Positions 29,234 to 47,936 of a stretch of 64,000 bases of DNA are shown piece by piece. Made by a program: the position numbers and the translations under genes. Positions within the stretch are counted from its first letter, which is position 1; the number at the start of each line of letters is the position of its first letter. Origin of the DNA: an uncultured Candidatus Saccharibacteria bacterium (GTDB lineage Bacteria; Patescibacteriota; Minisyncoccia; Phycocordibacterales; UBA918); assembly GCA_964601615.1 (NCBI GenBank), contig CAZRNZ010000001.1:7658-71657 (forward strand). The letters are read 5' to 3'. The notes under the pieces are model-generated. The model ran no database searches, was not told the origin of the DNA, and saw nothing but the letters and a program-made list of their open reading frames with translations.

Positions 29234-31809
29234 ACACTACTTGTTCCTTTCTGATGCGCACCATGAACTATTAGCCATTTTGCCATTTCAACCATTGCCA
29301 CGTTACCTATTACCCAAACAATCAGCCAAACAAACCATTCTAGAGGCAAGGCGGTTGTGCCAAAGAGGTTTTGGAAGAAAGGATGATATATCGTCATCAT
29401 CAGCATTGCAAGACCAAAAACAATTCCAATATTTAATACTTTGTTTTCAAAGATTGGATAAGAAAATAGTGGCTTATTTAGGTTGCGGAAAGAGTAAGCA
29501 ACAAACAAGATGTATGAAGCAAAACAGGCAAATACGAAAGTTCTCTCTACTGCTGATTCTCCACCAATTGTGACGAGTAAGTAATAAAGAACTAGAAGTG
29601 CAATTGAGCTCATGGTACCAATACCAAAACTCAGGGTTATCACTTCTTTACTTAAAATAGCTTGGTCCCGAGCACTACGCTTAGGGTTTTCTCTATCAAA
29701 GGCGTAGGCAATTGCTGGAATGCTGCCAGTAAAAAAGTTTACCCAAATAACCTGTAGTGGTGAAAGTGGCAAGGTTAGACCAATTATTAAAGAGCCTCCA
29801 AGTAATACGATTTCATCAAGTGAGTTCGACATTAGATAAACAAAAGTTTTTCTAATATTAGATAGGATTAATTTTCCTTCATCTATTGCGCCTTTGATTG
29901 TAAAGAAATTGTCGTCGAGCAAAACCAGGTCAGCAACTCCTTTAGCAACATCTGTACCGCTACCAACAGCAACACCAATTGATGCGCGTTTTAGTGATGG
30001 GGCGTCATTTACACCGTCACCCAACATTGCCACAACTTCGCCATTAGACTGCAGCATTTCTACTACGCGATATTTATCTTCTGGTGTCATACGAGCCAAA
30101 ATTCTGATGCGAGAAAGCGAATCAAGTAACTCTGAGTCAGTCATTGTTCGAAGGTCGTCACCAGTTAGCACCTTAGATAACTCTCCTTCCCAACCAAGGT
30201 TTGCAGCAATTGCTGCAGCGGTTCCTGGTAAATCGCCAGTTGCCATAATTACTCGAACTCCTGAATTTTCTATTTCAGAAATAGCCTCTTTCATATTCTC
30301 TCTTAGTGGATCGTAGAAAGAAAAGATTCCTAAAAGACTCAAATTAAAATCTGATTCTGTACTACCTTCTGATAATTCTCCAACTCCAAGTAATCTCTTG
30401 CCAGACTGACTTTGTTCTTCTAATAACGCAGATAACTTTTGTTTATTAATTTCAGATAAATTTGAATTCTTCAAAAGAATATCTGGCGCTCCAAGCACAA
30501 CTCTTTTTTCACCAGATTTATGGACTGAGTATTTGTGAGCAGAGCTAAATAATTTAATTGGTTCTGATTCGGAATAAATATCATGTACAGGCACACCTCT
30601 TTTGGCAGCAGCGCGAGCAATCGCCACATCTAAGTGTCTACCAGATATATTCCATTTGTCGGGAGATTCTTCTGGGTTATCAATAATTACATTGATGTTT
30701 GCAGATGCTAATGAGAGAAGATTTTTGATTGAATCTTCTTCAGTTTTTTCATTAGATAAAATTGAACTAGTTTGAAAAACTTCCACTAATTCCATATTTC
30801 CTGTGGTAAGTGTGCCAGTTTTGTCTGTGATAATTATCGTTGCACTACCAAGGGTCTCCGCTGCTAAAAGTGATTTAACAATTCCTTTTTGTTTAGCAAT
30901 TCTCTCTACTCCAACAGCTAAAATCGCAGTCAGTCCAGGTGGTAGTGCTTCAGGAATTGAGCCAACCGCAATAGCTACTCCAATTAAGAAAATTTCTAAA
31001 TGGTCCATGCCTCTGGCAATACCAATTGCATAAACTCCAACTGACAAAAGTATAATTGCAGCGGCAATTATGTAACCCATACGAGTAACTGCCTTTTGTA
31101 GTGGGGTGCGAGCATTTTCTTGAGTAAGGACCGCCTCAGCAATTTTGCCAAATTCAGTATATGAAGCTGTGGCTGTAATGATTGCCTTACCCTGCCCTTC
31201 AGAAACATAAGTGCCACCAAAGATAAGATTGGTACGGTCTTGAATTGGTGTTACCTCGGCAGTTGATTCTGTAGTTTTAGAGACTGGTAGAGATTCTCCA
31301 GTTAAAACGGATTCATCTACTGATAAGTCATGTACTTCAAACAATCTTCCGTCAGCGGGAATTCTTTCGCCAGAGCGAAGAATTATGATGTCACCCGGAA
31401 CAATATTGCGAGCATCAATTTCCTCTTCTTTTCCATCTCGGATTACTCGTACACGTGCTTCGATATATGACTTAAGTGCTTCAGTAGCTTTCTCTGCTTT
31501 GTATTCCTGAGAAAAACCTAATCCAACTGCTACACCAACTGCTAGAAAAATAAATAGCGCATCCACCCACTCATGAAAAATAATTGTTACAACTGCTGCT
31601 ATTAATAAGATGATTATTAGTGGACTAGCAAGTTGTTGGAAAAGTAACCAGATTGGTGAGCGTGAACGACCTTGCTCAAAGGTATTTATTCCGTAGGATT
31701 TTAATCTTTCTTCAGCTTCTTGCTCAGAAAGACCAGTTTCTTTATTACTATTAAGTTCCTTCGTTACTAGGTCGATATTTTTCGCCCAGACATTTTCAAT
31801 TGGTGGCAT
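29230..31809 (-). CDS. Cation-transporting P-type ATPase (Ca2+/Mg2+-type, P2).
   Basis: DKTGTLT phosphorylation motif, TGES-like motif, GDGVNDAP hinge, and ten TM segments. Confidence 0.85.
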   Translation of the reverse strand: MPPIENVWAKNIDLVTKELNSNKETGLSEQEAEERLKSYGINTFEQGRSRSPIWLLFQQLASPLIIILLIAAVVTIIFHEWVDALFIFLAVGVAVGLGFSQEYKAEKATEALKSYIEARVRVIRDGKEEEIDARNIVPGDIIILRSGERIPADGRLFEVHDLSVDESVLTGESLPVSKTTESTAEVTPIQDRTNLIFGGTYVSEGQGKAIITATASYTEFGKIAEAVLTQENARTPLQKAVTRMGYIIAAAIILLSVGVYAIGIARGMDHLEIFLIGVAIAVGSIPEALPPGLTAILAVGVERIAKQKGIVKSLLAAETLGSATIIITDKTGTLTTGNMELVEVFQTSSILSNEKTEEDSIKNLLSLASANINVIIDNPEESPDKWNISGRHLDVAIARAAAKRGVPVHDIYSESEPIKLFSSAHKYSVHKSGEKRVVLGAPDILLKNSNLSEINKQKLSALLEEQSQSGKRLLGVGELSEGSTESDFNLSLLGIFSFYDPLRENMKEAISEIENSGVRVIMATGDLPGTAAAIAANLGWEGELSKVLTGDDLRTMTDSELLDSLSRIRILARMTPEDKYRVVEMLQSNGEVVAMLGDGVNDAPSLKRASIGVAVGSGTDVAKGVADLVLLDDNFFTIKGAIDEGKLILSNIRKTFVYLMSNSLDEIVLLGGSLIIGLTLPLSPLQVIWVNFFTGSIPAIAYAFDRENPKRSARDQAILSKEVITLSFGIGTMSSIALLVLYYLLVTIGGESAVERTFVFACFASYILFVAYSFRNLNKPLFSYPIFENKVLNIGIVFGLAMLMMTIYHPFFQNLFGTTALPLEWFVWLIVWVIGNVAMVEMAKWLIVHGAHQKGTSSV

Positions 31810-32598: not shown

Positions 32599-32646
32599 AA
32601 AATGGCCGGAAAGGAGCTTCGCTCCTTTCCGGCCATATTTTTTATT
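32599..32646. terminator. Bidirectional terminator.
   Basis: aatggccggaaaggagc-ttcg-ctcctttccggccat followed by atttttt. Confidence 0.65.
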
Positions 32647-34324
32647 TACTCAGATAATAATAAATTCTGCCAAGTCTGATTATTTCGTAATCGTATCTTT
32701 CACCAAGGTGTTCAAAAATTGGTTTTAACTTTTCGTCCCCTACTTCACCAATTGCTTCTTTAATTTCCAACCAAACATCACTCCAGTCTTTTGGTAACAA
32801 ATGATTAATATCATTAAGTTCAATTCTTTTTTCAGTAACCAATTCTTCCAAGTGACTCCAAATAGTCGAGCCAGACATCTTCCTTTCTTTAGCTATTTGG
32901 GCAATATTATTTTTCTCTTGCAAAAGTCTCTTGGTTATTTCGTAAGTACTTTCCTTCTGAATTCTTTCGTGAGGTTCACCAACTTTCACATCCGCAGGAT
33001 TTGGAATCTTCCCTCCTAAAGTCGTCACAAAAGCTTTGTGCATTTTCTCTATCTCAGATTCTTCCATATCAGTGAAAGCACTTTCTGCTTGTTCGCTACT
33101 GTCACGAAAAGCCTCGTCCTGTCTGGCAACTCTCGGATCAACACTAAGAGCATTAGGATTCATTCCTGAAAGTTTTAGTCCCTGTAGGGTTCGTACACGC
33201 GATAGTGCAACGTATCCCTGTCCATAAGCAAAAGCGCGAGAAAGATCTATCTCTGCTGCATCAAGCGACATTCCCTGACTCTTGTGAATTGTAATTGCCC
33301 AAGCTAGACGTAGTGGCACTTGATCAATAGAAGCCTTTATCTTTCCATCTTCTACTACTTCCCAACTCGTCGGCTCCATCTTGATAGTTCTGCCGTCGGC
33401 TAGTTTGATAATTGGCCAGCCTTCACGAGCATCAAAATCTATTACTCGCCCTAGTGTGCCGTTTACATAACCCTTCTCAAAGTTATTTTTAGTACACATC
33501 ACCATCGCTTCTTCTTTAAGGTCGAGCACTTCTGGTGAAAGACAAGTTCTTACTAACCCTTCAATTAATGGTTTGCCACCCATGCCGTGCATTTTAAAAC
33601 TTCTGACAGTACCTTTTAGACTGGCGAGCTTTTGATTATTAAAAGCATCCACATCAGCGTTGTGAGTATATAGTTTGGTTGGTTCAATATTTTCAAAACC
33701 AATATCAGTTTGTTCCTTGAGAAGATTGTAGTGATCTTCTTCAACCTGCATTTTACGCACTGACTGCAAAAGTCCCAGAAATAGTTCGTCTTCTTGACGG
33801 TGTTGTTCTGTCAGATAGCAAACTAAAGGTTTTGCTTCTTTCCAGGCAAGAGAATCAAAAGCATAATGCACAACCTCACCCATCCTAGTGATTGGTGGTA
33901 ACTGAAAAAAGTCACCTACAAAAACTACTTGCAAACCACCAAATGGTTGCTCGCTTTGCTTTACAGCTTTGGCAACTTTATTTACCATGTCGAGCAAGTT
34001 GCCACTCATCATCGAGATTTCATCGATAATAAGTACGTGAGCTTTTTTAATTCTGCGAGCAGTTTTTTCACTTGAAGAAATCTTGTCTAAGTCTTGCGCA
34101 GTCAATGTATCTCGTACACCAATTCCACTCCAAGAGTGAATCGTCATTCCACCAATATGCGTTGCTGCAATTCCAGTAGAAGCAGTAACAGCCACTGATA
34201 AACCAGCTGCTTCAAGCCAAGCTATGTATTGATTGATAACATGGGTTTTTCCAGCTCCAGGTTCTCCAGTTAGAAAAACATTTCCACCAGTTTTTAGAAT
34301 ATCGAGTGCTTGATTTTGAATCAT
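32642..34324 (-). CDS. RecD/PIF1-like ATP-dependent DNA helicase with a C-terminal HTH-like domain.
   Basis: Walker A 'LTGEPGAGKTHV', Walker B 'VLIIDEISM', and a UvrD_C-like region 'TIHKSQGMS'. C-terminal HTH-like 'NIAQIAKERKMSGSTIWSHLEEL'. Confidence 0.7.
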   Translation of the reverse strand: MIQNQALDILKTGGNVFLTGEPGAGKTHVINQYIAWLEAAGLSVAVTASTGIAATHIGGMTIHSWSGIGVRDTLTAQDLDKISSSEKTARRIKKAHVLIIDEISMMSGNLLDMVNKVAKAVKQSEQPFGGLQVVFVGDFFQLPPITRMGEVVHYAFDSLAWKEAKPLVCYLTEQHRQEDELFLGLLQSVRKMQVEEDHYNLLKEQTDIGFENIEPTKLYTHNADVDAFNNQKLASLKGTVRSFKMHGMGGKPLIEGLVRTCLSPEVLDLKEEAMVMCTKNNFEKGYVNGTLGRVIDFDAREGWPIIKLADGRTIKMEPTSWEVVEDGKIKASIDQVPLRLAWAITIHKSQGMSLDAAEIDLSRAFAYGQGYVALSRVRTLQGLKLSGMNPNALSVDPRVARQDEAFRDSSEQAESAFTDMEESEIEKMHKAFVTTLGGKIPNPADVKVGEPHERIQKESTYEITKRLLQEKNNIAQIAKERKMSGSTIWSHLEELVTEKRIELNDINHLLPKDWSDVWLEIKEAIGEVGDEKLKPIFEHLGERYDYEIIRLGRIYYYLSK

Positions 34325-37214: not shown

Positions 37215-37528
37215 CCTCTAGTTTACGTTACATCCTAGGTAAATCATCTGACTATCTAAGTCATAGGTAATCCTGAAGCATTGATATTCTGCCACACTCC
37301 CATTCCATTCCAAGAATTTATCTGATTCTAGCCTACTGGCTATTATTTTTCTTTAATGTTAGAAGTCCTTGTAGATGATTAATGCTAGGATGAAGAACTC
37401 TGCATGTTCTGCCATTACTTATGTAAGTAATTTAACTTTTCGGTTCACTTTAGAAAAGGCGTCTACTTTACCGCTGCTGATATTATCTCCAAGAGCTTCT
37501 GTGTGTGATCTGGGTGACTTCGGTTGAG

Positions 37529-39847
37529 TCAGTCCCTTTTAAATAATTCATTTATTTCCTCCCTGCTTCCTTCAATTATGTCCCTGTGGCTATCTTCATC
37601 AGCAAAATCTTTTGCAGATTCTTCCATCATCTCTAAAGCTCTATCAGCATGGTTATCACTCATTCTGTCTACGATTGTGGCTACATTGAAAGATGTCATG
37701 TCTAATACATACCTGCGTTCGGAATCTATAAAATTTTCGTTGATCGCTTGTTCAATTTCAGAATTGATGGAATATGTGTCAACTTCGTAGTCATCTGGAG
37801 CTATAAAATCAACATATTTAGTGTAATCAATATCTAAATGATCTTCTATATTATAAAGAATATGATCTTCATATAGCAGAGCAAGATGCTCTGCTATATG
37901 TTTATCTTGTATCTGTCTATCATAAAAGTATCTAAATAAATGCTCAAAGTCGAGATTGTCTATATTACTATTTAGATAAGCCCATAAAAAGTCAAATTTT
38001 TCTGGCACAAATTCTGTTTCAAAAAAAGATAATATGTAATAAAGCTTGTAGAAATCAATTAAGTTTAAGCTCTGTGACTCTTCTTTTTCCAGTGTGGTCA
38101 GACTAGATAAAACTTCAATTATTTTTTCACTGGCAAGATTATTTTCATCGCAGTGTATTAAACATACAAGCCAATTCCAATCTTTCTTAGCAAGTTTACT
38201 TTTATATAACGATTCAAATAAATTTTTCTGTAAATATTTAAATTCTAAATCAGTAATATAGTCATTTCTTTTTAAAGATTCTAAATATTGGATGGATTCA
38301 ATATTTGACAAGGCAAACAATAATTTATTTATCTCAGACTCGTTATTTTTAAAATAATTCTCAACTATATAGTCTCCAAGAGATGGATTAAAAAGAATGT
38401 ATTGAAATTCGTTTTTATCAAAAACTTTACTCCTACTTAGAAGTGAATCTAAAGCTACTTTAATAACGTAACTAAAGGAAGCTTCGTTATCAGAAGAAAA
38501 CTTATTGTAGTTACAAAAAATATCAAAAGAATTTCTTAGGTGTGATTCACTTATTTTTCCGTTATTAAATGCGACTAATAAAACCAGGGTTTTTGTACAC
38601 CTGTCTAACTTTTCGAAATAGTCCTCCCAAATATCACTCGGGTTATCAAGTTTTTCTTCTATGTAGGTAAAATAATCATTACTTTTTATTTCAGAAAACT
38701 CGACCCTCTCTTTTTCTAAAATGTATTCGATTATTCTTGGATTGAAATTACTATGATTAATAATCTTCCAATACTTTTTTTCAAGGTAAATTTGATCAAC
38801 ATAGTCAGGGTCTAATTCAGAAAAATACATATGTTTATACAATATGCGTGCTTTGTCTATCGGTCTTAGGTTTTCGATTTGTAGTACATATTCACTACCT
38901 TTAATATTTCCCTTCTCTAGGGAAGGGAATATTCCTCGTGCCTTATTTATGATGGTGGTGCGAGAATTTAATATAAATTTAAGTTTCTTGGATCGCGCTA
39001 CTCTGTCCATAAATAACATAATTTGGGAAGAATCATCTCCTTTGGAAATATCCATAAAATTTTCACCAAGAAAGTCATCAAAATAAAAAACTATGTTACA
39101 TTCTTGATTTGCTGACACAATATCTTCAGCTTCTTTGATGTTCCTGATTGAATAGAAAGAATATCCATTCTTTACATATGTAAATGCAAGCATATTTGAT
39201 AGTGTTGTCTTTCCAATGCCTGCTTCTCCAGTGATTACTACAACATTCTTTTCATCCAAACGTTTTCCAGCTTTATCAAAATCTTCAGTGTAAACAAATC
39301 GAACAGAATTTTTCTTTATATTCTCAAGTAGAAAATCACTTTGTCCTTGCAGTCCGCCAGTAAGCGCATTTGCAATTGTCTGCCCTAAAATCTTTTTCAG
39401 AAGAATCTCTGAATATATGTATAGCTGTGTATATTTTTTAACAATGTCAAAATTCTCTTCTTTTGAGAGAAAACTCTGTATATCATCGAACCCCCAAATA
39501 TCTTCCACGCCTTTAATGAAGCCGTTCATAATAGATAGCATCTCAGCTTTTTTTAGTGGAGTGACTTTACCAGAAGTCATAAAGATATACCTTTCAGGGT
39601 TCAGGGCTTTGACTTTGTTCGTTTCTAATTTTAATGCAGATATAATACGAACAGATGTCGCGTCAGGATAATGCTTCGCCTGTATTATTACACTTTGATT
39701 TTCACCCACCCAAAATCTTCCATCGATACCGCTGTCTTTTCCAACGGTAAAACGTTCAACTCGTTTACCATTCTCTTTCTCAATGATGTCAGCACACAAG
39801 TTTTCAAATTCTCTTGAATCAAGTCTTTTAAGATCGTATTCGGTCAT
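37529..39847 (-). CDS. Mrr-type PD-(D/E)xK nuclease domain fused to a NACHT-like STAND P-loop NTPase, with a C-terminal alpha-helical region (Avs/bNACHT-like antiviral protein).
   Basis: N-terminal 'GKDSGIDGRF...VIIQAKHY' Mrr_cat-like motifs. Walker A 'ITGEAGIGKTT'. Walker B 'IVFYFDDFLGE'. NACHT 'TSR'-like 'ILNSRTT'. Long helical C-terminus. Confidence 0.65.
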   Translation of the reverse strand: MTEYDLKRLDSREFENLCADIIEKENGKRVERFTVGKDSGIDGRFWVGENQSVIIQAKHYPDATSVRIISALKLETNKVKALNPERYIFMTSGKVTPLKKAEMLSIMNGFIKGVEDIWGFDDIQSFLSKEENFDIVKKYTQLYIYSEILLKKILGQTIANALTGGLQGQSDFLLENIKKNSVRFVYTEDFDKAGKRLDEKNVVVITGEAGIGKTTLSNMLAFTYVKNGYSFYSIRNIKEAEDIVSANQECNIVFYFDDFLGENFMDISKGDDSSQIMLFMDRVARSKKLKFILNSRTTIINKARGIFPSLEKGNIKGSEYVLQIENLRPIDKARILYKHMYFSELDPDYVDQIYLEKKYWKIINHSNFNPRIIEYILEKERVEFSEIKSNDYFTYIEEKLDNPSDIWEDYFEKLDRCTKTLVLLVAFNNGKISESHLRNSFDIFCNYNKFSSDNEASFSYVIKVALDSLLSRSKVFDKNEFQYILFNPSLGDYIVENYFKNNESEINKLLFALSNIESIQYLESLKRNDYITDLEFKYLQKNLFESLYKSKLAKKDWNWLVCLIHCDENNLASEKIIEVLSSLTTLEKEESQSLNLIDFYKLYYILSFFETEFVPEKFDFLWAYLNSNIDNLDFEHLFRYFYDRQIQDKHIAEHLALLYEDHILYNIEDHLDIDYTKYVDFIAPDDYEVDTYSINSEIEQAINENFIDSERRYVLDMTSFNVATIVDRMSDNHADRALEMMEESAKDFADEDSHRDIIEGSREEINELFKRD

Positions 39848-39878
39848 ATGTAATATGTTTTACAATTTGCCAATTTTA

Positions 39879-42092
39879 TTATGGCAATAATCCACAAACA
39901 TCAGTATATAATTTTTTTAACTCATCAATGCTCATATCAAGTATTGGTTCATACATAAAAGAATTGAGATGAATGTTCTCTGGAGTCATAATATTTACTC
40001 TTTCTAGAATAATAAGGGCATTTTTCAGACTATCATCTCTCACAGAATCATCTTTATATCTTTCAAATAATTCTCGCGTTTGGTTAACTGAAATTCGACT
40101 TCTATCCGTAATTTTAGCCAACATGTACTCCTCAGCTTTCTGTCGTATTGCTATAGCAAGAATAATTTTATTTTCCAGATTAAACTCCTCATCTCGTATC
40201 GTAGATGCTACTGTCAATAAATGCTGATAGACAATATCTGTATCAGCAATAGTTGCATCAAAGTCATCCCTGTCTATATGCTCTTTAAAGATAAGTTTCA
40301 AATCAGAAAATGTAATATTGCCTGTGTTTGTTTTAGAGTGTAGTAAACATGTTAAAGTGCTGAAATCATCACCGTGAGCAGTTGAGCTGAGAGATCTTCT
40401 GCTGTATTCGATTAGATTTCTGACAAAAGGAATCAAGGCCAAAATATGCTTTTTTGCATCGTCAGCTGTGAAATCTTTATCTTTATACTGTCCACTTTTT
40501 AGACAGTTCATCCAAGTTATAAAGGGTGGATTTTGATACACTTCTTTGATGAGACTTATCCCGTCAAGAGTTTTAATTGCGTGTTTCTTACAATCTCTTG
40601 AAAGACCTAGTCTGCTAGTTATTGTCCTGTAGAAGTCAAAATTGTGAGTAAGGATTATTGAGTAGAAATTACTACCTTTATTGAGGTCATTTAGATATTC
40701 AACAATTGCATATTTGTTTTTATAATCAAACGAATCAGCAATGTCATCAATAATAAAAACAGTTTCTTGATTTTGTAATTGTCTCGATTTAATTTCAAAA
40801 ATAACATTAAGTAAGTAAAAAGCCCGTCTCTCTCCCTGACTTAGGATATTATCTACCATTGTCTTACGTTCGACCGGCTTCCCTTGGAATGAAAAATCAA
40901 TAGCAGGTGTTTGATTGTTTAAAACAGCATCTGCTTTATTATTGATTGCTATCTTAAAAGGTACATTTGCAAATCGGTTTTCAAACTCACCAATAGCTGC
41001 TTCCCATGCTGATTGACCATCTTTAGCCTTTTGGATTATTTCCTCTAAATCTTTTTCTTTGCTCTTGTATAAATCGACCAATACCTCAATACTGGGTGAG
41101 ATCTGTTTCAAGAACCCAAACCATACCTCTCTTTTAAAATCATCGTAATTTACTAACTTTGCAAGAATCTGTTGATTCTTCTTTTGAGTGATAACTTTTT
41201 TAAAGGCCCTTAATGTTTTTGTTTTATCTAGCTTTTTCTCAATTTCTTGAAATAACTCGCGTAATTTTTCATCATTAAATATCTTTTCAACCTCTTCATT
41301 TAAAATTATTGAAAAATCTTCAGACTTTTGAATTTCACCATGTTTTTTCAGTAATAATTTATGTCCCGTGTTGAAATACTCATCTCCCTCTAGGGATGAA
41401 TTTAAAGATTTTGCCTCAGTGGTACCAAAGATGTTTTGGGCATTTTTACCAAAAAACTCAGAATCACTCACGAGTTCCTCATATTTCTCTATGTAGTTTT
41501 GTAATAGCTGAAAGTTCTCACTCAAAAAATCCCGTACCTCATTTTTTGGATCAAACACATCGTTGTATTTAAAATCAAAAAATTCTTTTGCAGATTTAAT
41601 CTCTGGCAGAGTTGTCTCAAAAATCTCAAATATGTTTTTCTTTTTTAGATATGAAAAAGCATCATTGATTTCTGCCTCGTAGTTACCACTACCAGTTATT
41701 TTTTTAAGTCCTGATAGTGTAGCTTTTTTTTGGGAGTCAATTTCTTTGTATATTGTTAGATATTCTTTTCGGGTTTCTTCATCTGCTAGAAGTGTAAGAA
41801 CCTCTTCAGAATTAAATGCTTTGTCGTTATAGGGTTCAATGACACAAATATTTTCTGGCTGCACAGGTATTCCGTCTTCTCGAAACACATCAAAGGTAGG
41901 CATTAACGAGGTATCCATTTGGTCGCATGGTTTACTTTTTGACGAAATATCTTTGAATGTTTTGGCAAAGGAGGTCTTCATTACTCCGTTGGCTGCATAA
42001 ATAGCGATAGTTTTACATTTTGAAAAATCAAACTCACCTTCAAGCTTTTTTATACCGTAACAGTTTTCAAATTTAATGGCTAATTTATTCAT
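39879..42092 (-). CDS. PrrC/RloC/AAA_13-like ABC-type ATPase with a degenerate Walker A, a long coiled-coil insert, and an uncharacterised C-terminal domain.
   Basis: N-terminal 'IAIYAANGVMKTSFAKTF' resembles the AAA_13 'IYGRNGSGKST' P-loop, with the second Gly replaced. Walker B/D-loop 'VFIIDDIADSFD' lies about 410 aa downstream. The intervening region is Lys/Glu-rich and helical. Confidence 0.55.
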   Translation of the reverse strand: MNKLAIKFENCYGIKKLEGEFDFSKCKTIAIYAANGVMKTSFAKTFKDISSKSKPCDQMDTSLMPTFDVFREDGIPVQPENICVIEPYNDKAFNSEEVLTLLADEETRKEYLTIYKEIDSQKKATLSGLKKITGSGNYEAEINDAFSYLKKKNIFEIFETTLPEIKSAKEFFDFKYNDVFDPKNEVRDFLSENFQLLQNYIEKYEELVSDSEFFGKNAQNIFGTTEAKSLNSSLEGDEYFNTGHKLLLKKHGEIQKSEDFSIILNEEVEKIFNDEKLRELFQEIEKKLDKTKTLRAFKKVITQKKNQQILAKLVNYDDFKREVWFGFLKQISPSIEVLVDLYKSKEKDLEEIIQKAKDGQSAWEAAIGEFENRFANVPFKIAINNKADAVLNNQTPAIDFSFQGKPVERKTMVDNILSQGERRAFYLLNVIFEIKSRQLQNQETVFIIDDIADSFDYKNKYAIVEYLNDLNKGSNFYSIILTHNFDFYRTITSRLGLSRDCKKHAIKTLDGISLIKEVYQNPPFITWMNCLKSGQYKDKDFTADDAKKHILALIPFVRNLIEYSRRSLSSTAHGDDFSTLTCLLHSKTNTGNITFSDLKLIFKEHIDRDDFDATIADTDIVYQHLLTVASTIRDEEFNLENKIILAIAIRQKAEEYMLAKITDRSRISVNQTRELFERYKDDSVRDDSLKNALIILERVNIMTPENIHLNSFMYEPILDMSIDELKKLYTDVCGLLP

Positions 42093-42098
42093 ACATTC

Positions 42099-43190
42099 TT
42101 ACCGCAAAAATCTAATCTGCAAATTTAGTTTCATTCGCTGTTCGCGGTTTTCTTCATAGATTTTTCCAAACCTATGACGAATAGTACTTGGTGTATCTAG
42201 TTTTGTATTGTGAAAGAGATAGTCCTCAAATTTGTCGCGGTTATAAAGATGGTAACAGACAATATCACCGTCTTCTTTCACAACAATGTAACCACCGTGC
42301 GCTTCAGTGTATCCATCCCAATCTTTACTCGGCATCATTCCCAGGGCGATACTTGATAGAAAACTTTTTATGTTCATCACTAACATTTCTTTAGTGAAAT
42401 CAATCTGCTCCATAAAGGTAGTATCGTTGGCAATCTTATCCATCAAATCCTTGATGGTAGTTGCTTCTCCCATGTAGTAGTGTTTCAGCATCTGAGCGAC
42501 AATCTTGGGGAATATCGAATCAATTTTTCGAAGGTTACGCCTAAAAATGTCGTTATCCATTCCTATATACTCAAGCTTTGCGCCCACATCATAGGTTAAT
42601 TTTGCAGCATCTCTAACAGACAAGTTGTTGCTACTTTCCACGGGTTTATTATCTTCAGTAGCAATTCTATATAAAAAATTAGTTGCTCCAGATGCATTAA
42701 GGAGAGTTGCGGGCGAACCGAGCATTGATTTGATACTAAAACCTAGCTCTGGAAATTCAGGAGACTTCTTATCATGTAAAACAATTGTTAAGTCGGCCTT
42801 TTTGGCACTCGACGCACGCATTTGGGTACAATAGAGATCGTTCATTGATTCTGTCGCACTTGCAACCTCAAATGTTGTTCCTTCTGAGTTTTTAATCTGT
42901 TCAAAAACTTTAGCAACGCCACCCTTGATTTTTTCCAAATTTACCACACCTATCTCCTCATTTTCACTTGAAATAACAACCAGTCCATCGTTTTTGGAAA
43001 TGTCGTACTCCCTCTTTCCAACTGCCTCCTGACGAATAATTTTCAAAACAATATGAAAATTATCTTCAAGTATTTTTAGATTTTTATCTGCTGTAAAAAC
43101 TTTTCCATCAGTCAAGATTTTAATAAAGGCATAGAATTCAGACCATTCTCCTTTATTGCCTTTGAGAGTTGTAGTAATTTTATTTGTCAT
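42099..43190 (-). CDS. Type II restriction endonuclease, HpaII-like (predicted CCGG specificity).
   Basis: N-terminal 'KGNKGEWSEFYAFIKIL' recalls the RE_HpaII family. Size is about 360 aa. It overlaps by 11 nt the upstream M.HpaII-like methyltransferase gene. Confidence 0.5.
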   Translation of the reverse strand: MTNKITTTLKGNKGEWSEFYAFIKILTDGKVFTADKNLKILEDNFHIVLKIIRQEAVGKREYDISKNDGLVVISSENEEIGVVNLEKIKGGVAKVFEQIKNSEGTTFEVASATESMNDLYCTQMRASSAKKADLTIVLHDKKSPEFPELGFSIKSMLGSPATLLNASGATNFLYRIATEDNKPVESSNNLSVRDAAKLTYDVGAKLEYIGMDNDIFRRNLRKIDSIFPKIVAQMLKHYYMGEATTIKDLMDKIANDTTFMEQIDFTKEMLVMNIKSFLSSIALGMMPSKDWDGYTEAHGGYIVVKEDGDIVCYHLYNRDKFEDYLFHNTKLDTPSTIRHRFGKIYEENREQRMKLNLQIRFLR

Positions 43191-44847
43191 ATTTTTCTAG
43201 GGTTTCAATTATTCTTTCCGCAACTGCTTGAATTGCTGGGACAGCAACAGAGTTACCAAGCTGTTTCATCGATTGAACACTTGATACCTCTTCTGGAAAC
43301 TCAAACCATTTGGGGAATCCTTGCATCTTCAAGCCTTCTTTAGGTCCAATCTGCACAACTTTTCCGTCCACACGATACGCGTCCCAATTTCTGCGGTCAT
43401 TAATACTACTGCCACGACCCCCAACACGAAGGGTAAAACCAACATCTCTATCGCATTTACCGCCAAATATATCTGACATGGTGTACTTCAACTCTTTTAC
43501 TGGTTCTGGAAATTCAAAAGGAATTGTATTATCACGAAAACCAACCATAAACAAACGCGGCCGATGTTGTGGAACTCCAAAATCTGAAGCTTTTACAATT
43601 TTCGCGTGGAATGAATACCCAAGATCTTCTTCGATAATTCGTTTAATTGTTTCAAAAGTTTTTCCGCCATCGTGAGCATATAATCCACGTACATTTTCAA
43701 GAAAAAACGCTTTTGGCTGCTTTTCTTTCATTATGCGAACTACATCAAAAAACAACGTGCCGCGCGCTTCTGCAAAACCTTTTTTGAAACCTGCTTGTGA
43801 GAATGGCTGACAAGGAAATCCGCCTGTGATTATGTCAAAATCAGGCATTTCTTTTTCGTTGACCTTTGTTATATCTCCGACAAAATTACCACTTCTGAAC
43901 ACGTCGGGTGAAACTTTGTAAAAATTATGTCTATATGTACTTCGTGCTGGTTCATCCCACTCCGAAACAAAAACGCATTCAGCGCCGACATTATGAAATG
44001 CAACATGAAAACCACCGATACCTGCAAAAAGGTCGATGAATTTATGCTTTGTTTTTGTCAGTGGTTCTGGTGCTTTATCGTTGACTCCTAGAAAATACAT
44101 ATGACGTGAATCGACAAGAAGGCCAAATAGTGACCCTTGATTACCTTCAGCAACATAATCAGTCGCTTTCGGTTCCATTTTTTGTAATTCGGCAAGAATA
44201 CTATGTACACCTTGTTCAGCAATAATAAGAAAATCTATGACGTTTATACCGATAATCTTACCTGCTTCAATAATTCGGGCAGCAACCTGTTTGTCTTCGT
44301 TACTCGGTGAAGGGTCACCAGATGGGTGATTGTGAATAACAATGACACTAGCAGCATGTTTCTCAAGTCCAGGAGCAAATACTTCTCGCGGATGGATAAT
44401 ACTTTTGTCCAAAGTGCCGATAGATACAATTTCTTTATGTACTAAAACACTTCGAGCGTTGAGGTAAAGACAAACCAAGTGTTCCTTTTTTGCTGTTTTG
44501 AGTTCAGGAACCAATATCGCAGCATCAATGGCAGACAACACCATATGTTCCTCTTCGCCGTTATGTTTGTCATACATACGTCGCGCCAGGGCAAACATTG
44601 AAGCAATTTGCAATGCTTTGACATCTCCTATTCCAGAAATTTGTTTCAAATCTTCCACGGTTGCGTCCATTAGATTATTACCAAATTTTCTGGATATTTT
44701 TTGAGCAAGTAACTTGACGTTTGTGCCTTTGATACCACTTCCAAGTAAAATAGCGAGTAGTTCACTGTCGGTGAGAGCATCGCTACCTTTTCCAAGAAAT
44801 TTCTCGCGTGGTCTGTCGTATTTTGGTGTATCTTTGAGTTTAGCCAT
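43180..44847 (-). CDS. Fusion protein: an N-terminal RadC-like JAB/MPN domain joined to a C-terminal DNA (cytosine-5)-methyltransferase (M.HpaII/Dcm-like).
   Basis: Residues 1-250 carry the HhH 'LSDSELLAILLGSG' and JAB motif 'IVIHNHPSGDPSPSNED'. Residues ~270-555 carry motif I 'FIDLFAGIGGF', motif IV 'GGFPCQPFSQAG', motif VI 'FFLENVRGL', and 'GNSVAVPAIQA'. The reading frame is continuous across both parts. Confidence 0.8.
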   Translation of the reverse strand: MAKLKDTPKYDRPREKFLGKGSDALTDSELLAILLGSGIKGTNVKLLAQKISRKFGNNLMDATVEDLKQISGIGDVKALQIASMFALARRMYDKHNGEEEHMVLSAIDAAILVPELKTAKKEHLVCLYLNARSVLVHKEIVSIGTLDKSIIHPREVFAPGLEKHAASVIVIHNHPSGDPSPSNEDKQVAARIIEAGKIIGINVIDFLIIAEQGVHSILAELQKMEPKATDYVAEGNQGSLFGLLVDSRHMYFLGVNDKAPEPLTKTKHKFIDLFAGIGGFHVAFHNVGAECVFVSEWDEPARSTYRHNFYKVSPDVFRSGNFVGDITKVNEKEMPDFDIITGGFPCQPFSQAGFKKGFAEARGTLFFDVVRIMKEKQPKAFFLENVRGLYAHDGGKTFETIKRIIEEDLGYSFHAKIVKASDFGVPQHRPRLFMVGFRDNTIPFEFPEPVKELKYTMSDIFGGKCDRDVGFTLRVGGRGSSINDRRNWDAYRVDGKVVQIGPKEGLKMQGFPKWFEFPEEVSSVQSMKQLGNSVAVPAIQAVAERIIETLEKYDK

Positions 44848-44854
44848 ACATTGA

Positions 44855-45079
44855 TTACTTCAAAAGTTTGTCACTTGTGACTCCAAGCGCTATAGCAATG
44901 CGTTCGATGGTAGCAAGTGTCGGATTGCCTTTTCCAGCTTCAAGATTGCTAATGAAAGCTCTGTCGCACTTCAACGCTCTGCATATATCGCCTTGAGACA
45001 TACGCTTATCCTCTCGAACACGTTTCATATTTTTCGCTAGTCGTTTTGGTGCTTGTTGCATATCATTTCCACAGTGCAA
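44855..45079 (-). CDS. XRE-family HTH transcriptional regulator (controller-protein-like). The start is probably the ATG at 45061 rather than the TTG at 45079.
   Basis: HTH_3 motif 'RMSQGDICRALKCDRAFISNLEAGKGNPTLATIERIAIALGV'. It ends 7 nt before the methyltransferase gene. Confidence 0.7.
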   Translation of the reverse strand: MHCGNDMQQAPKRLAKNMKRVREDKRMSQGDICRALKCDRAFISNLEAGKGNPTLATIERIAIALGVTSDKLLK

Positions 45080-45081
45080 TC

Positions 45082-45093
45082 ATTATACAAGAA
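45082..45093 (-). promoter_or_regulatory. Extended -10 promoter (TGTATAAT) of the defence operon.
   Basis: The minus-strand sequence reads cttgTATAATgattgcactgtggaaATGatATG, about 20 nt upstream of the regulator's ATG. Confidence 0.4.
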
Positions 45094-45315
45094 TATTGTA
45101 TTGTGTGCTAATGATTTATAATACAACAGTGGTACAGAATTGGATATTTCTTTGGTTGTGGGGCGAGCGATAGCGAAGCACATCAAACCCCATGAGTATA
45201 CAGAAGTACAAAGCCACCACGCGCCTGGCGCGCCCTGCTTCGGTGCAGAATAGCGATTTATTTATGAGCCTTCTCGTGATAGAACCAAATGATTTCATTG
45301 CCTCGTAAGGTCATT

Positions 45316-45927
45316 TTAGTTGGTCGGACTGATTTGCTCCGACCCTTCTCCAGAGATATATTTTAGATCAGAAAACACATCCTCAAACCCTGTGGCTTTT
45401 AAAATTTGCTTCGCTTCAATTTTAGTATCTCTTTTATCATCTAGATCAACACTTACTCTACATGCTTCTATCATTCCAGATATGTAAGCATTATCTAATT
45501 TGTGTTGTTTAGCTCCCGCAACCATAAGTGCCAAATACCAATCGTATACTGGTAAGCCACTTATATATTTTTCAGTTGGAGCAATGTATGTCCTTACATT
45601 ATTCAGTACTTTACCCTCAAAAATTACCGTAAAATCTTCTTTTACGATGTAACCACCGTTACCCCTACCTTCAGCACTGTCTAGTTTTATTATTTCGTCA
45701 CCACTATCGTCAATTTCAAATAGAACTCCATAAACAATATCAGACTCGTTGCACGTTTTTAGTAAGGTCGCTTTGGCTGAATCATCTTTACTTTCTTTGA
45801 TAAGTATTACCTTATAGCCCATAACAATTGCTTTGCCGAGAGGTTCCGCACTTGTACACCGTTTTGGTGCCTTGAGCCGTTCTGTCAGCATGTTTGAACC
45901 GTATGCGAAGTATTTCATATAGGCCAT
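45316..45927 (-). CDS. Gamma-glutamyl cyclotransferase / AIG2-like (GGCT fold) protein.
   Basis: N-terminal 'YFAYGSNM' hallmark of the GGCT/AIG2 fold, plus a downstream acidic catalytic-region candidate. Confidence 0.55.
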   Translation of the reverse strand: MAYMKYFAYGSNMLTERLKAPKRCTSAEPLGKAIVMGYKVILIKESKDDSAKATLLKTCNESDIVYGVLFEIDDSGDEIIKLDSAEGRGNGGYIVKEDFTVIFEGKVLNNVRTYIAPTEKYISGLPVYDWYLALMVAGAKQHKLDNAYISGMIEACRVSVDLDDKRDTKIEAKQILKATGFEDVFSDLKYISGEGSEQISPTN

Positions 45928-45954
45928 TATCTCTCAAAAGTGACAAAAATGACA

Positions 45955-47010: not shown

Positions 47011-47443
47011 TAGAAATCATAAATAACCAATTCATCACTATTATTAACAAACTGACCGCTGGCAAATACGCAAAGCCACCTAATAAGAATGGGTATAAGT
47101 ACGCGCTTATGCTACCAATCCACTGATTATTCTCATCCGTAGCCAGGGCAAGAAAGAACACAACATAGGTGAAGCAGATAATTGTGGACACCAATATCCA
47201 GGTTAAATAATCTAACTGTCGACTAGATAATTTGTATTTTTGCCACTCAAAAACCAAATAGTTGGTAACGGCAAAAAATATAATCATGCCGGACTGCAAA
47301 ATAATCCCACTAGTCTCCTTAGGCTCAGTTCCAGCAAAACTAAATATTGCTTCAATTACTACTGGGAAAAACACAGCCAGCATTACCACTAATTGTATTT
47401 TCTTTTCGACGCTCTTTATCTTTTCCTTGACTGTTAATTCCAT
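46994..47443 (-). CDS. Small four-TM membrane protein (149 aa).
   Basis: Four hydrophobic helices (LVVMLAVFFPVVIEAIF, IIFFAVTNYLVF, ILVSTIICFTYVVFFLAL, LLGGFAYLPAVSLLIIVMNWLF). Confidence 0.5.
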   Translation of the reverse strand: MELTVKEKIKSVEKKIQLVVMLAVFFPVVIEAIFSFAGTEPKETSGIILQSGMIIFFAVTNYLVFEWQKYKLSSRQLDYLTWILVSTIICFTYVVFFLALATDENNQWIGSISAYLYPFLLGGFAYLPAVSLLIIVMNWLFMISSAETK

Positions 47444-47907
47444 ACATCACTTCTGTTTATCTATCAGCTTCAATAAATCCTCCTCTTTCTCATAGGCTCT
47501 CAATCTACCCTTCCAGCACACCCAGTCGATAACTCACACCATCGGTGGTTAAACGCCAATTGGCATCGGACAAGGGCCGAACGAATTAGTTTCTCTAGAG
47601 ACTTCTTGCTGTCGTACTCTTCTCGTTCTCCCTTTTGTCATACACGACGAAGGGAACAACAACCTAATGGGTCTTTGAGCTGAAGCTGTACGTAGTCAAC
47701 TTCGCTAGCGATGGGAGTCAAAAGCTCCTCTAGCTCCATAATACGTATTTTTCAGGTTTTTGCTACAACTCCTTCTATATACTTCTAACTATTTCCGTAT
47801 ACATAATCTCCTTTTGTGGCACAGAATAACGTTTTCGAAAAACGTCATTTTTGGGTACATAATTGAAATTATCAAGAGGAAAATCCAACTCCTTTTTATG
47901 ACAGTAA

Positions 47908-47936
47908 AACAGTCTCAAATTGAGACTGTTTTTGTA
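47908..47936. terminator. Hairpin terminator, usable in both orientations, downstream of tRNA-Glu on the minus strand.
   Basis: aacagtctcaa-att-gagactgtt followed by tttgt (plus strand) or tttact (minus strand). Confidence 0.5.

What the first reader, a model, noticed from the sequence alone, without database searches (positions are those of the whole stretch)
37529..39847. Mrr-type nuclease fused to a NACHT-like STAND NTPase (compact Avs/bNACHT-like protein)
What the sequence shows. The N-terminus has the Mrr_cat pattern: 'FENLCADII...GKDSGIDGRF...VIIQAKHY' (D ... E/Q-x-K). Then come Walker A 'GEAGIGKTT', Walker B 'NIVFYFDDFLGE', and a TSR-like 'ILNSRTT'. About 400 residues of helical, repeat-like sequence follow.

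Established knowledge. STAND NTPases fused to PD-(D/E)xK/Mrr effectors are antiviral pattern-recognition proteins (Avs/bNACHT). They oligomerise when they bind phage proteins.

At 772 aa this protein is small for an Avs. It is co-operonic with an R-M pair and an ABC ATPase, not stand-alone.
Basis: partly seen in the sequence, partly recalled or inferred. Interest (0 to 1): 0.6.

Follow-up and report, generated by a model that had tools for sequence, protein, structure and literature searches.

The report
Mrr-nuclease STAND defence candidate (PDC-S73)
This gene encodes a one-protein candidate antiviral sensor: a DNA-cutting Mrr domain, a STAND molecular switch and a short, fast-evolving sensor tail. 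It belongs to a large family that is already catalogued but apparently untested, so the finding is correct but fairly ordinary.

Summary
The ORF is real: 37529..39847 on the minus strand, 772 aa. Every quoted motif is present.

**Domains**
- Residues 6-97 match Mrr_cat. E15, D42, Q56 and K58 are invariant in 41 homologues.
- Residues 184-342 match Pfam nSTAND3 (E 3e-43). The Pfam NACHT model is below threshold.
- Residues 346-500 form the helical and winged-helix domains.
- Residues 501-772 are a short, hypervariable, strongly acidic helical domain ending in a conserved "IDDLFER"-type tail.

**Family.** The whole protein matches PADLOC PDC-S73 (E 6e-184), one of 145 untested "guilt-by-embedding" defence candidates. 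The family is large: 1,875 clusters at E<=1e-30, almost all 740-790 aa.

**Structure.** The best solved-structure matches are Avs4, human SAMD9 and the AVAST5 filament. Avs5 has the same size class and, by the literature, the same nSTAND3 clade. This protein is therefore best read as an Avs5-like chassis carrying an Avs4/Avs8-type Mrr effector.

**Context.** No partner gene is conserved across 26 loci. The neighbouring ATPase (PDC-S46) belongs to restriction-modification operons, not to this gene. The host is probably a CPR (Paceibacteria-like) bacterium.

**Likely mechanism (inferred).** A trigger drives oligomerisation, which activates the nuclease and aborts infection.

**Verdict.** This is a new member of a known kind.

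The parts
37529..39847 (-). Complete gene for the 772-aa Mrr_cat-nSTAND3 protein (PADLOC PDC-S73 family), stop codon included
   Evidence: ORF list and translation. PADLOC PDC-S73 matches residues 1-771 against profile 1-751/752, E 6.2e-184. The N-terminus aligns from residue 1 with homologues.
39428..39847 (-). Residues 1-140: Mrr-type PD-(D/E)xK nuclease effector domain. Catalytic E15 (39803-39805), D42 (39722-39724) and Q56-x-K58 (39674-39682)
   Evidence: Pfam Mrr_cat covers residues 6-97, E 5.7e-10. E15, D38, D42, Q56, K58 and H59 are invariant in 41 sequences. The model's alpha-beta-beta-beta-alpha-beta order places them canonically. Coordinates checked.
39293..39427 (-). Residues 141-185: long helical linker between effector and NTPase. 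Residues 149-159 have low confidence
   Evidence: AF2 secondary structure shows helix H147-183 with pLDDT < 50 at 149-159. The PADLOC pAgo-associated Mrr module match extends to residue 163.
38813..39292 (-). Residues 186-345: nucleotide-binding domain of the STAND module. Walker A G207-T214 (39206-39229), Walker B 253-258 VFYFDD (39074-39091), sensor-1 N/T-S-R 294-296 (38960-38968)
   Evidence: Pfam nSTAND3 covers residues 184-342, E 3.3e-43, profile 1-155/155. G207, G210, G212, K213, T214, D258, S295 and R296 are invariant; D257 is conserved in 40 of 41.
38348..38812 (-). Residues 346-500: helical domain (NFNPR motif at 367-371, 38735-38749) and winged-helix domain with a beta-hairpin (strands 470-475 and 480-485)
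   Evidence: AF2 model. H365, P370, R371, N487, P488 and D492 are invariant. Mean pairwise identity is 47%. Foldseek matches to NLR/Avs NOD modules.
37613..38347 (-). Residues 501-745: short, hypervariable, strongly acidic all-helical C-terminal domain with one beta-hairpin. Presumed sensor
   Evidence: Mean pairwise identity is 23%, against 47-57% for the upstream domains. Net charge is -20 to -50 in all 41 members. The C-terminal model has pLDDT 87.9. No significant PDB fold match.
37532..37612 (-). Residues 746-772: acidic disordered linker plus a conserved C-terminal tail motif. The family consensus is (I/V)D(D/E)LF(E/Q/S)R; here it reads INELFKRD
   Evidence: F769 is invariant and the tail is conserved in all 41 sequences although the domain before it is hypervariable. 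The tail helix is confident in the full-length model (pLDDT ~86) but not in the C-terminal-only model (~50).
39879..42092 (-). Context, not part of the system: PDC-S46 ABC/SMC-like ATPase, 31 bp upstream on the same strand
   Evidence: PADLOC PDC-S46 E 9e-228. phrog_38705 matches full length. Homologues sit inside type I, II and III R-M operons without any PDC-S73 gene.
42099..45079 (-). Context: controller HTH (44855-45079), RadC/JAB-Dcm C5-methyltransferase fusion (43180-44847) and HpaII-family endonuclease (42099-43190)
   Evidence: Pfam and PADLOC matches. Called genes in L001.

Best explanation
The gene encodes an autonomous, single-polypeptide antiviral STAND (Avs-like) protein of the nSTAND3 clade, a member of the PADLOC candidate family PDC-S73.

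Proposed mechanism:
1. In the resting state the nucleotide-bound NBD-HD-WHD module holds the protein as an inactive monomer or dimer. The conserved C-terminal tail may act as a latch.
2. During infection the short, acidic, fast-evolving C-terminal domain binds a phage-derived cue, most likely a protein.
3. This releases the NTPase module to oligomerise, either as tetramers (Avs3/4/8) or as filaments (Avs5).
4. Oligomerisation brings the N-terminal Mrr PD-QxK domains together into active nuclease units.
5. These units cut DNA indiscriminately and abort the infection.

Shown here: domain identity, conserved catalytic, Walker and sensor-1 residues, the NOD architecture, the hypervariable acidic C-terminus, the absence of a conserved partner gene, and a mobile-element or defence-island context. 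Inferred: antiviral role, the trigger, the oligomeric state, the substrate and the latch.
For: **Domains.** Mrr_cat plus nSTAND3, and a full-length PDC-S73 match.

**Conserved functional residues.** Purifying selection acts on E15, D42, Q56 and K58; on Walker A K213/T214; on Walker B D257/D258; and on S295/R296. This holds across 41 homologues at 29-69% identity.

**Fast-evolving C-terminus.** Identity is 47-57% over residues 1-500 but 23% over 501-772. HMMER alignments of most representatives stop near residue 530. This is the pattern of a rapidly evolving sensor.

**Structure.** The AF2 model (pLDDT 85) shows NBD-HD-WHD. Foldseek gives Avs4 8dgf at E 4e-9, SAMD9 at 1e-7, the AVAST5 filament 9nc9 (768 aa) at 1.7e-7 over 722-782 columns, then NOD2, RPP1, Roq1 and Dark.

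**Literature.**
- Avs5 carries nSTAND3 and an unusually short sensor, and is activated by filamentation.
- The Mrr-STAND proteins Avs4 and Avs8 degrade DNA after binding portal or capsid protein.

**Autonomy.** No S46 or HpaII homologue lies in 32 other loci. No neighbour family recurs in more than 3 of 26 loci. The gene is solitary among housekeeping genes in Malaciobacter, Flavobacterium and Pseudomonas.

**Mobility and defence context.**
- 12 IMG/VR viral contigs and 49 plasmids carry relatives.
- One homologue sits at a prophage end, beside a recombinase and a terminase.
- Other homologues neighbour PIN/Fic, or SinI R-M plus an AAA_15 ATPase.
- In the window the gene sits in a low-GC island next to a tRNA-Glu, with an R-M system, PDC-S46 and a PDC-S42-like gene.
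Against: - No experiment on this family was found. 'PDC-S73' occurs in no searchable paper, and PADLOC's PDCs are explicitly untested.
- No PADLOC Avs-type model matches, and the family profile finds only P-loops in PDB sequences. The link to Avs4, Avs5 and SAMD9 therefore rests on fold similarity with low global TM-scores (0.25-0.32) and on shared Pfam membership reported in the literature.
- The isolated C-terminal domain resembles no known Avs sensor. At 272 aa it is much smaller than the target-wrapping sensors described for Avs families.
- Several homologues sit among housekeeping genes with no defence neighbours.
Confidence: 0.7

Rival explanations
1. It is the effector or second component of a multi-gene system together with the upstream PDC-S46 ATPase, and possibly the HpaII-type R-M pair. 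It would be co-transcribed with them and activated through them rather than sensing by itself.
For: - Same strand, a 31-bp gap and no predicted terminator between S46 and S73.
- Both genes have about 31-33% GC against 38% for the window.
- The S46-S73 pair recurs in the P0003 lineage (L036 and L037): S46 at 75% identity, S73 at 67%. There it sits behind a different R-M-like pair, EcoRI_methylase plus GmrSD_N/HNH.
Against: - 32 other S73 loci lack any S46 homologue.
- The 69%-identical P0002 lineage has no S46 upstream.
- S46 homologues at 83-84% identity, and more distant ones, sit in type I, II or III R-M operons with no S73 gene.
- No neighbour family is conserved in more than 3 of 26 loci.
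- STAND proteins with their own effector and sensor are self-contained in all characterised cases.
Confidence: 0.1
2. It is an NTP-dependent type IV-like restriction enzyme, as its NCBI name 'restriction endonuclease' suggests. It would recognise modified or foreign DNA directly, with the NTPase acting as a switch for DNA cleavage rather than as a receptor for phage proteins.
For: - The Mrr_cat catalytic core is intact.
- NCBI names homologues 'restriction endonuclease'.
- A C5-methyltransferase is the most frequent neighbour, in 3 of 26 loci.
- Lee et al. leave open that some STANDs sense non-protein molecules.
Against: - No Mrr_N or other DNA-reader domain was detected by Pfam.
- The C-terminal domain is strongly acidic, with net charge -20 to -50 in all 41 members, which is unfavourable for DNA binding.
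- The NTPase is a STAND switch, not a translocase or McrB-type GTPase.
- Hypervariability of the C-terminus fits an arms race with proteins.
Confidence: 0.12
3. It has a non-defence role: an addiction or stabilisation module of mobile elements, or a regulatory STAND whose nuclease acts in element competition rather than phage defence.
For: Frequent carriage on plasmids (49 records, 27 of them conjugative) and on viral or prophage contigs. A position beside serine recombinases.
Against: - Defence genes show the same distribution.
- There is no antitoxin-like partner.
- The architecture is identical to validated Avs proteins.
- The PDC family was defined from genes embedded in BREX, DISARM or type I R-M loci.
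Confidence: 0.05

Closest known systems
PADLOC PDC-S73 (phage defence candidate, single gene; Payne et al. 2024 'guilt-by-embedding' set)
   Same: End-to-end HMM match: residues 1-771 against profile 1-751/752, 611.8 bits. The single-gene nature was confirmed by the neighbourhood analysis.
   Different: Nothing distinguishes the protein from the family. The family itself is one of 145 untested candidates, and no paper naming it was found.
Avs5 / AVAST type 5 (SIR2-STAND; EfAvs5, PaAvs5; PDB 9nc9)
   Same: - Same size class: 768-839 aa against 772 aa.
- NTPase assigned to Pfam nSTAND3 in the literature.
[quoted passage not shown]
- TT/SR-type sensor-1 arginine.
- Whole-chain Foldseek match at E 1.7e-7, TM 0.30-0.32.
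   Different: - The effector is an Mrr nuclease, not a SIR2 NADase.
- No PADLOC Avs model matches.
- tblastn and profile searches do not connect the sequences.
- The isolated sensor shows no fold match to the Avs5 sensor.
Avs4 (EcAvs4, PDB 8dgf) and Avs8 (PD-lambda-4A): Mrr-nuclease STAND proteins
   Same: N-terminal Mrr-type PD-(D/E)xK effector followed by a STAND NTPase. Avs4 is the best Foldseek hit overall, E 4.3e-9. For these proteins, DNA degradation after oligomerisation has been shown experimentally.
   Different: - Avs4 is about 1,540 aa, with a large sensor that binds portal protein.
- Avs8 works with a second gene, Avs8B, and senses HK97 capsid protein.
- Here the sensor is 272 aa, acidic and unrelated in fold. 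The NTPase clade is nSTAND3, and there is no second gene.
Human SAMD9/SAMD9L and bacterial Avs6/Avs9 (SAMD9-like STANDs)
   Same: Foldseek match to SAMD9 structures at E 1e-7 to 1e-6. The literature groups Avs5, Avs6 and Avs9 with SAMD9 as one chassis carrying swapped effectors: SIR2, PNP and AlbA_2.
   Different: No AlbA_2, SIR2, SAM or OB domains are present. TM-scores are only 0.17-0.18 because SAMD9 is much larger. Homology as opposed to convergence is not resolved.
Mrr-TIR-APAZ partners of short prokaryotic Argonautes
   Same: Residues 3-163 match the PADLOC pAgo-associated models at E 3.6e-33 and 1.4e-24. They share about 30% identity with the N-termini of Sinorhizobium TIR proteins. One of these, on pNGR234a, has TIR_2 at residues 190-311 and is followed by an overlapping 517-aa gene.
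   Different: Only the N-terminal effector cassette is shared. The rest of those proteins is TIR plus APAZ, not a STAND NTPase.
E. coli Mrr (type IV restriction endonuclease)
   Same: Mrr_cat catalytic core with the D...QxK signature.
   Different: In Mrr the catalytic domain is C-terminal, behind a DNA-reader domain (my own knowledge). Here it is N-terminal and fused to a STAND switch, and no DNA-reader domain was detected.

Membership tests
STAND NTPase superfamily | P-loop NBD with Walker A GxxxxGK[ST] and Walker B hhhhDD | tested here: met
   GEAGIGKT at residues 207-214 and VFYFDD at 253-258. G207, G210, G212, K213, T214 and D258 are invariant; D257 is conserved in 40 of 41.
STAND NTPase superfamily | Sensor-1 arginine in a T(T/S)R-type motif after strand beta4 | tested here: met
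   (T/N)294-S295-R296, with S and R invariant in 41 sequences. EfAvs5, ZAR1 and Apaf-1 use the equivalent TT/SR arginine.
STAND NTPase superfamily | NBD followed by a helical domain and a winged-helix domain (NOD module) | tested here: met
   The AF2 model (pLDDT 85.2) has helices at 347-427 and a winged helix with a hairpin at 470-485. Foldseek probability is 1.00 to Avs4, SAMD9, AVAST5, NOD2, RPP1, Roq1 and Dark.
Pfam nSTAND3 (PF20720) | Score above the curated gathering threshold over the whole model | tested here: met
   147.5 bits against 27.2; profile 1-155/155; E 3.3e-43.
NACHT clade / bNACHT | Match to the NACHT model (PF05729) above the gathering threshold | tested here: not met
   16.4 bits against a cut-off of 26.7. 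Only residues 202-224 (the P-loop) align. In PADLOC, apart from PDC-S73 itself, the only matches in the NTPase region are weak, short ones around the Walker A region: PbeC, mad8 and VakA, E 7e-4 to 3.5e-3.
PADLOC PDC-S73 | Full-length match to the family HMM | tested here: met
   E 6.2e-184; residues 1-771 against profile 1-751/752.
PADLOC PDC-S73 | Single-gene system (no obligatory partner) | tested here: met
   No gene family occurs within +-5 kb in more than 3 of 26 loci. Solitary genes in L014, L016 and L019.
Avs (antiviral STAND) in general | Tripartite layout: N-terminal effector, central STAND NTPase, C-terminal sensor | tested here: met
   Mrr_cat at 6-97, nSTAND3 NOD at 184-500, divergent C-terminal domain at 501-772.
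Avs (antiviral STAND) in general | Protection against phage, and activation by a phage-encoded protein | not testable with these tools
   Needs plaque assays and co-expression screens. No publication on this family was found.
Avs5 (AVAST type 5) | N-terminal SIR2 NADase effector | tested here: not met
   The N-terminus is Mrr_cat, with no SIR2 match.
Avs5 (AVAST type 5) | nSTAND3-type NOD and overall fold like the EfAvs5/AVAST5 structures | tested here: inconclusive
   Our NOD is nSTAND3, and Avs5 is reported as nSTAND3. Foldseek to 9nc9 gives E 1.7e-7 but TM only 0.30-0.32. No direct sequence link was found. No Avs5 sequence was available for a profile-profile test.
Avs5 (AVAST type 5) | Shared C-terminal sensor fold (SAMD9-like cluster) | tested here: not met
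   The isolated C-terminal model (pLDDT 87.9) has no PDB hit below E 0.3. AVAST5 and SAMD9 are not among its hits.
Avs4 / Avs8 (Mrr-STAND) | Mrr-type nuclease effector with intact catalytic residues | tested here: met
   E15, D42, Q56 and K58 are invariant. Avs4 is the top Foldseek hit.
Avs4 / Avs8 (Mrr-STAND) | Large family-specific sensor (portal- or capsid-binding) and sequence membership | tested here: not met
   The sensor is only 272 aa with an unrelated fold. No PADLOC model other than PDC-S73 covers the protein.
Mrr-family type IV restriction endonuclease | Mrr_cat core plus a dedicated DNA-reader domain, with modification-dependent cleavage | tested here: inconclusive
   The catalytic core is met. 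No reader domain was detected, and the C-terminus is acidic. Cleavage specificity cannot be tested here.

The most novel reading that the evidence does not exclude
PDC-S73 may be a distinct, still unnamed Avs type with its own activation logic. It combines four features:
- an nSTAND3 (Avs5/SAMD9-like) chassis;
- an Mrr effector cassette also used by short-Argonaute partner proteins;
- a 272-aa sensor with no known fold relative, hypervariable in sequence yet uniformly very acidic (net charge -20 to -50);
- an invariant C-terminal '(I/V)D(D/E)LF(E/Q)R' tail.

The acidic domain and tail could act as a DNA-mimicking autoinhibitor of the nuclease. A basic, DNA-binding phage protein would then displace it. 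That would be a decoy-type sensing mode, different from the target-wrapping sensors of Avs1-21. Its presence in a probable CPR (Paceibacteria-like) genome would also place NLR-like immunity in ultra-small episymbiotic bacteria.
Probability: 0.2. Interest if true: 0.55.

Novelty: new member of a known kind. Interest (0 to 1): 0.3.

Why it matters
If the family is active, it adds another Avs type: an Mrr nuclease on the Avs5/SAMD9-like nSTAND3 chassis. That would illustrate effector swapping between STAND and Argonaute-linked systems.

The family is abundant, with about 1,900 clusters at 50% identity across many phyla, plasmids and prophages. It has no published trigger or phenotype. Its compact size (about 770 aa, single gene) makes it an easy target for trigger screens and structural work.

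For this window specifically, nothing here is surprising. The gene is correctly recognised, sits in a typical defence island and belongs to a family that annotation tools already flag.

Tried and rejected
1. **Sequence searches against PDB chains.** Searches with the protein and with the 41-sequence profile found only P-loop matches. No sequence-level link to solved Avs or SAMD9 structures could be made.
3. **Attempts to obtain an Avs5 sequence for a direct profile comparison.**
   - The Avs5 supplement lists only accessions.
   - tblastn of the NOD against plasmids found no SIR2-linked relatives.
   - The SIR2 protein next to the pNGR234a Argonaute locus has no nSTAND3 domain.
4. **Lee et al. 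seed table.** I searched it for this family's motifs and found none, but the stored file is truncated. Whether their 589 clades or Avs11-24 include this family is unknown.
5. **L013.** This distant hit proved to be a fragmentary ORF in a high-GC genome and was dropped.
6. **Host guess.** I first guessed a Bacteroidota host, from the lack of a Shine-Dalgarno sequence and the nearest named S73 homologues. I rejected this after the flanking P-type ATPase matched Candidatus Paceibacterota, Kaiserbacteria and Yanofskybacteria proteins at 61-72% identity.
7. **Promoter scan.** The sigma-70 scan gave fewer sites than shuffled controls (25 against 32). It says nothing about an internal promoter for the gene.
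8. **PHROGs.** There is no PHROGs family for the S73 protein.
Full report
**Observation.** The window contains an ATG-initiated ORF of 772 codons at exactly 37529..39847, on the minus strand. The plus-strand reading is full of stops.
- E15 in FENL
- D42 in GKDSGIDGRF
- Q56-A-K58 in VIIQAKHY
- Walker A GEAGIGKT (207-214)
- Walker B VFYFDD (253-258)
- N294-S295-R296 in ILNSRTT

The start codon is right, because homologues align from residue 1.

**Domain identity.**
- Pfam gives nSTAND3 (PF20720) over residues 184-342 at E 3.3e-43, 147.5 bits against a cut-off of 27.2, with the whole profile matched.
- Pfam gives Mrr_cat over residues 6-97 at E 5.7e-10.
- The NACHT model reaches only 16.4 bits (cut-off 26.7), on the P-loop alone.
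- PADLOC matches the entire protein (1-771) to PDC-S73 at E 6.2e-184.
- PADLOC also matches residues 3-163 to two models of Argonaute-associated proteins, at E 3.6e-33 and 1.4e-24. No Avs-type model hits, even at a permissive threshold.

According to Payne et al., PDCs are 145 untested 'phage defence candidates'. They were derived from genes found embedded in BREX, DISARM or type I R-M loci. No searchable paper mentions PDC-S73.

**Family.** The word-indexed search found 831 homologues among 8,000 candidates. Nearly all are 740-790 aa and annotated Mrr_cat plus nSTAND3. NCBI names them 'restriction endonuclease' and UniRef 'nSTAND3 domain-containing NTPase'. Named examples come from Flavobacterium, Malaciobacter, Arcobacter, Sulfurimonas, Pseudomonas and Rheinheimera. 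The exhaustive HMMER search of 1.84 billion 50%-identity representatives gave 1,875 proteins at E<=1e-30 and 3,351 at E<=1e-3. Most of these alignments stop near residue 530. Relatives occur on 49 plasmids and 12 IMG/VR viral contigs.

**Conservation pattern.** I aligned 41 homologues of 29-69% identity (A1).
- Invariant residues: E15, D38, D42, Q56, K58, H59, G207, G210, G212, K213, T214, D258, S295, R296, H365, P370, R371, N487, P488, D492 and F769. D257 is conserved in 40 of 41.
- Mean pairwise identity by region: 53% (Mrr), 57% (NBD), 47% (HD/WHD) and 23% (residues 501-772).
- The divergent C-terminal domain is nevertheless acidic in every member. Its net charge is -20 to -50 (mean -32), against about -1 for residues 1-500.
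- Every member ends in a conserved tail, (I/V)D(D/E)LF(E/Q/S)R, after an acidic linker.

**Structure.** The AF2 model built with A1 has mean pLDDT 85.2. It shows:
- a canonical alpha-beta-beta-beta-alpha-beta nuclease core, with E15 on alpha1, D42 at the start of beta2 and Q56/K58 on beta3;
- a long linker helix;
- a P-loop NBD, a helical domain and a winged helix with a hairpin at 470-485;
- an all-helical C-terminal domain.

Foldseek against the PDB ranks Avs4 bound to portal (8dgf, E 4.3e-9) first. Human SAMD9 follows (E 1e-7), then the AVAST5 filament (9nc9, a 768-residue chain, E 1.7e-7, 722-782 aligned columns, TM 0.30-0.32), then NOD2, plant TIR-NLRs, Dark and AAA+/ORC proteins. A separate model of residues 495-772 (pLDDT 87.9) has no PDB match better than E 0.3; its hits are generic TOG, Puf and TPR repeats. 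The tail helix is confident in the full-length model (about 86) but not in the isolated domain (about 50). This suggests, without proving, that the tail docks on the N-terminal half.

**Comparison with known systems.**
[quoted passage not shown] It is activated by filamentation and uses a TTR sensor-1 arginine. Its homologues are 787-839 aa.
- Avs5, Avs6 and Avs9 are grouped with SAMD9 as one chassis carrying different effectors.
- Mrr-STAND architectures are experimentally validated in Avs4 and in Avs8/PD-lambda-4A. There, binding of portal or capsid protein triggers DNA degradation.

The protein is thus best described as an Avs5-like nSTAND3 chassis with an Avs4/Avs8-type effector and a sensor of its own. 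I could not test the Avs5 link by direct profile comparison, because no Avs5 sequence was obtainable. BLAST-level and HMM-level searches do not connect the two.

**The effector cassette.** The N-terminal effector cassette (residues 1 to about 190) is shared with Mrr-TIR-APAZ partners of short Argonautes.

**Genomic context.** In the window the gene is the last of a same-strand run:
- HTH controller (44855-45079)
- RadC/JAB-Dcm fusion (43180-44847)
- HpaII endonuclease (42099-43190)
- PDC-S46 ATPase (39879-42092)
- PDC-S73 (this gene)

The gaps are -11, 6 and 31 bp. A PDC-S42-like gene (45955-47010) and a tRNA-Glu (47981-48055) lie just beyond. S73, S46 and the S42-like gene have 31-33% GC, against 38% for the window.

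The arrangement is not conserved.
- tblastn finds no S46 or HpaII homologue in 32 other S73 loci.
- Clustering all ORFs within +-5 kb of 26 loci finds no family in more than three loci. The top family is C5-methyltransferase.
- Neighbourhoods vary widely. Some are pure housekeeping. Others hold PIN plus Fic, a recombinase with an AAA_15 ATPase and SinI R-M, or a prophage end with a terminase.

Only the 67%-identical P0003 lineage repeats the S46-S73 pair, and it does so behind a different R-M-like pair. The 69%-identical P0002 lineage lacks it.

S46 homologues are consistently embedded in R-M operons of types I, II and III without S73. This is the property by which PADLOC's PDCs were defined. 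I therefore assign S46 to the R-M cassette and treat S73 as an independent module appended downstream. Local co-transcription is plausible but unproven.

**Host.** The flanking P-type ATPase is 72% identical to a Candidatus Paceibacterota protein and 61% identical to a Kaiserbacteria protein. Close S46 homologues are also named from Magasanikbacteria, Nomurabacteria and Paceibacteria. The window therefore probably comes from a CPR/Patescibacteria genome. This rests on named best hits only.

**Mechanism and verdict.** The most likely function is an autonomous abortive-infection sensor. A phage cue binds or displaces the acidic C-terminal domain, nucleotide-dependent oligomerisation of the NOD follows, the Mrr domains come together, and DNA is degraded. 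Every step after domain identity is inferred by analogy with Avs3, Avs4, Avs5 and Avs8. The rivals are less supported, for the reasons listed under each: a two-gene system with S46, a DNA-sensing type IV-like restriction enzyme, and a mobile-element maintenance function.

The finding is a correctly recognised member of a large, already catalogued but untested family. It is a new member of a known kind, of modest interest.

Noticed in passing
window 39879-42092 (-); loci L036, L040-L045, L048, L054: The neighbour PDC-S46 is a 737-aa ABC/SMC-like ATPase with about 380 residues between Walker A and the signature/Walker B motifs. Its homologues sit inside or at the 3' end of R-M operons of different types:
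- type II (the window);
- EcoRI_methylase plus GmrSD_N/HNH (L036, L042);
- type III (L040, L041, L048);
- type I, between HsdM and HsdS, once beside an AAA_13/PrrC-like gene (L043, L054).

The family is very large and well conserved: 6,783 hits at E<=1e-10, 48-86% identity among the 120 listed, and it matches phrog_38705. This is a PrrC/RloC-like 'restriction-linked' pattern and deserves its own study.
   Followed up: partly
window ~37500-48055: A defence island of about 10 kb lies next to tRNA-Glu(ctc) at 47981-48055. It holds a PDC-S42-like gene (45955-47010), an AIG2/GGACT-like gene (45316-45927), the HTH-M-R cassette, PDC-S46 and PDC-S73. S73, S46 and the S42-like gene have 31-33% GC against 38% for the window. 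No integrase was seen.
   Followed up: partly
window 43180-44847 (-): The methyltransferase of the HpaII-type R-M pair is fused at its N-terminus to a complete RadC/JAB domain: UPF0758_N plus RadC at residues 5-217, Dcm at 269-555. This is an unusual fusion. A free-standing RadC also lies upstream of the type I R-M/S46 locus in L043.
   Followed up: no
window 37532-37612 (-), residues 746-772; alignment A1: All 41 family members end in a conserved tail, (I/V)D(D/E)LF(E/Q/S)R, after an acidic linker, with F769 invariant. The 270 residues before it are hypervariable. The tail is confidently modelled only in the full-length prediction, which suggests it docks on the Mrr/NOD half as a possible latch.
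   Followed up: partly
window 37532-38347 (-), residues 501-772: The C-terminal domain is strongly acidic in every family member (net charge -20 to -50, mean -32), despite about 23% sequence identity. Residues 1-500 are near neutral. The conserved charge with unconserved sequence hints at DNA mimicry or recognition of basic proteins.
   Followed up: partly
window 39355-39847 (-), residues 1-~165; L034 3998-5920: The Mrr-plus-linker cassette is homologous to the N-terminus of TIR-domain proteins encoded just upstream of an overlapping 517-aa gene with no Pfam match on rhizobial plasmids (for example pNGR234a NGR_RS29725). These are presumably Mrr-TIR-APAZ partners of short Argonautes. The cassette is shared between STAND and Argonaute-linked systems.
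   Followed up: partly
whole window (host identity); window 29230-31809: The flanking P-type ATPase has its best named relatives in Candidatus Paceibacterota (72%), Kaiserbacteria (61%) and Yanofskybacteria. The window therefore probably comes from a CPR/Patescibacteria genome. A four-system defence island would be notable for such a small genome.
   Followed up: partly
window 37870-37900 (+), inside the S73 coding region: A perfect 14-bp-stem palindrome (CATATAGCAGAGCA AGA TGCTCTGCTATATG) followed by a T-rich stretch was flagged as terminator-like on the strand opposite to the gene. It may be chance.
   Followed up: no
window 32642-34324 (-): A 560-aa PIF1/AAA_30 helicase-like protein gives partial PADLOC matches to PDC-S68, RecD-like and PDC-M16A models (E 1e-12 to 7e-18). 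It lies about 3 kb outside the island on the other side of the FAD-oxidase gene.
   Followed up: no
loci L021-L033 (IMG/VR and metagenome contigs): S73 homologues occur on 12 viral contigs, several near a contig end. One lies beside a serine recombinase and a terminase. This fits carriage as a prophage accessory gene.
   Followed up: partly
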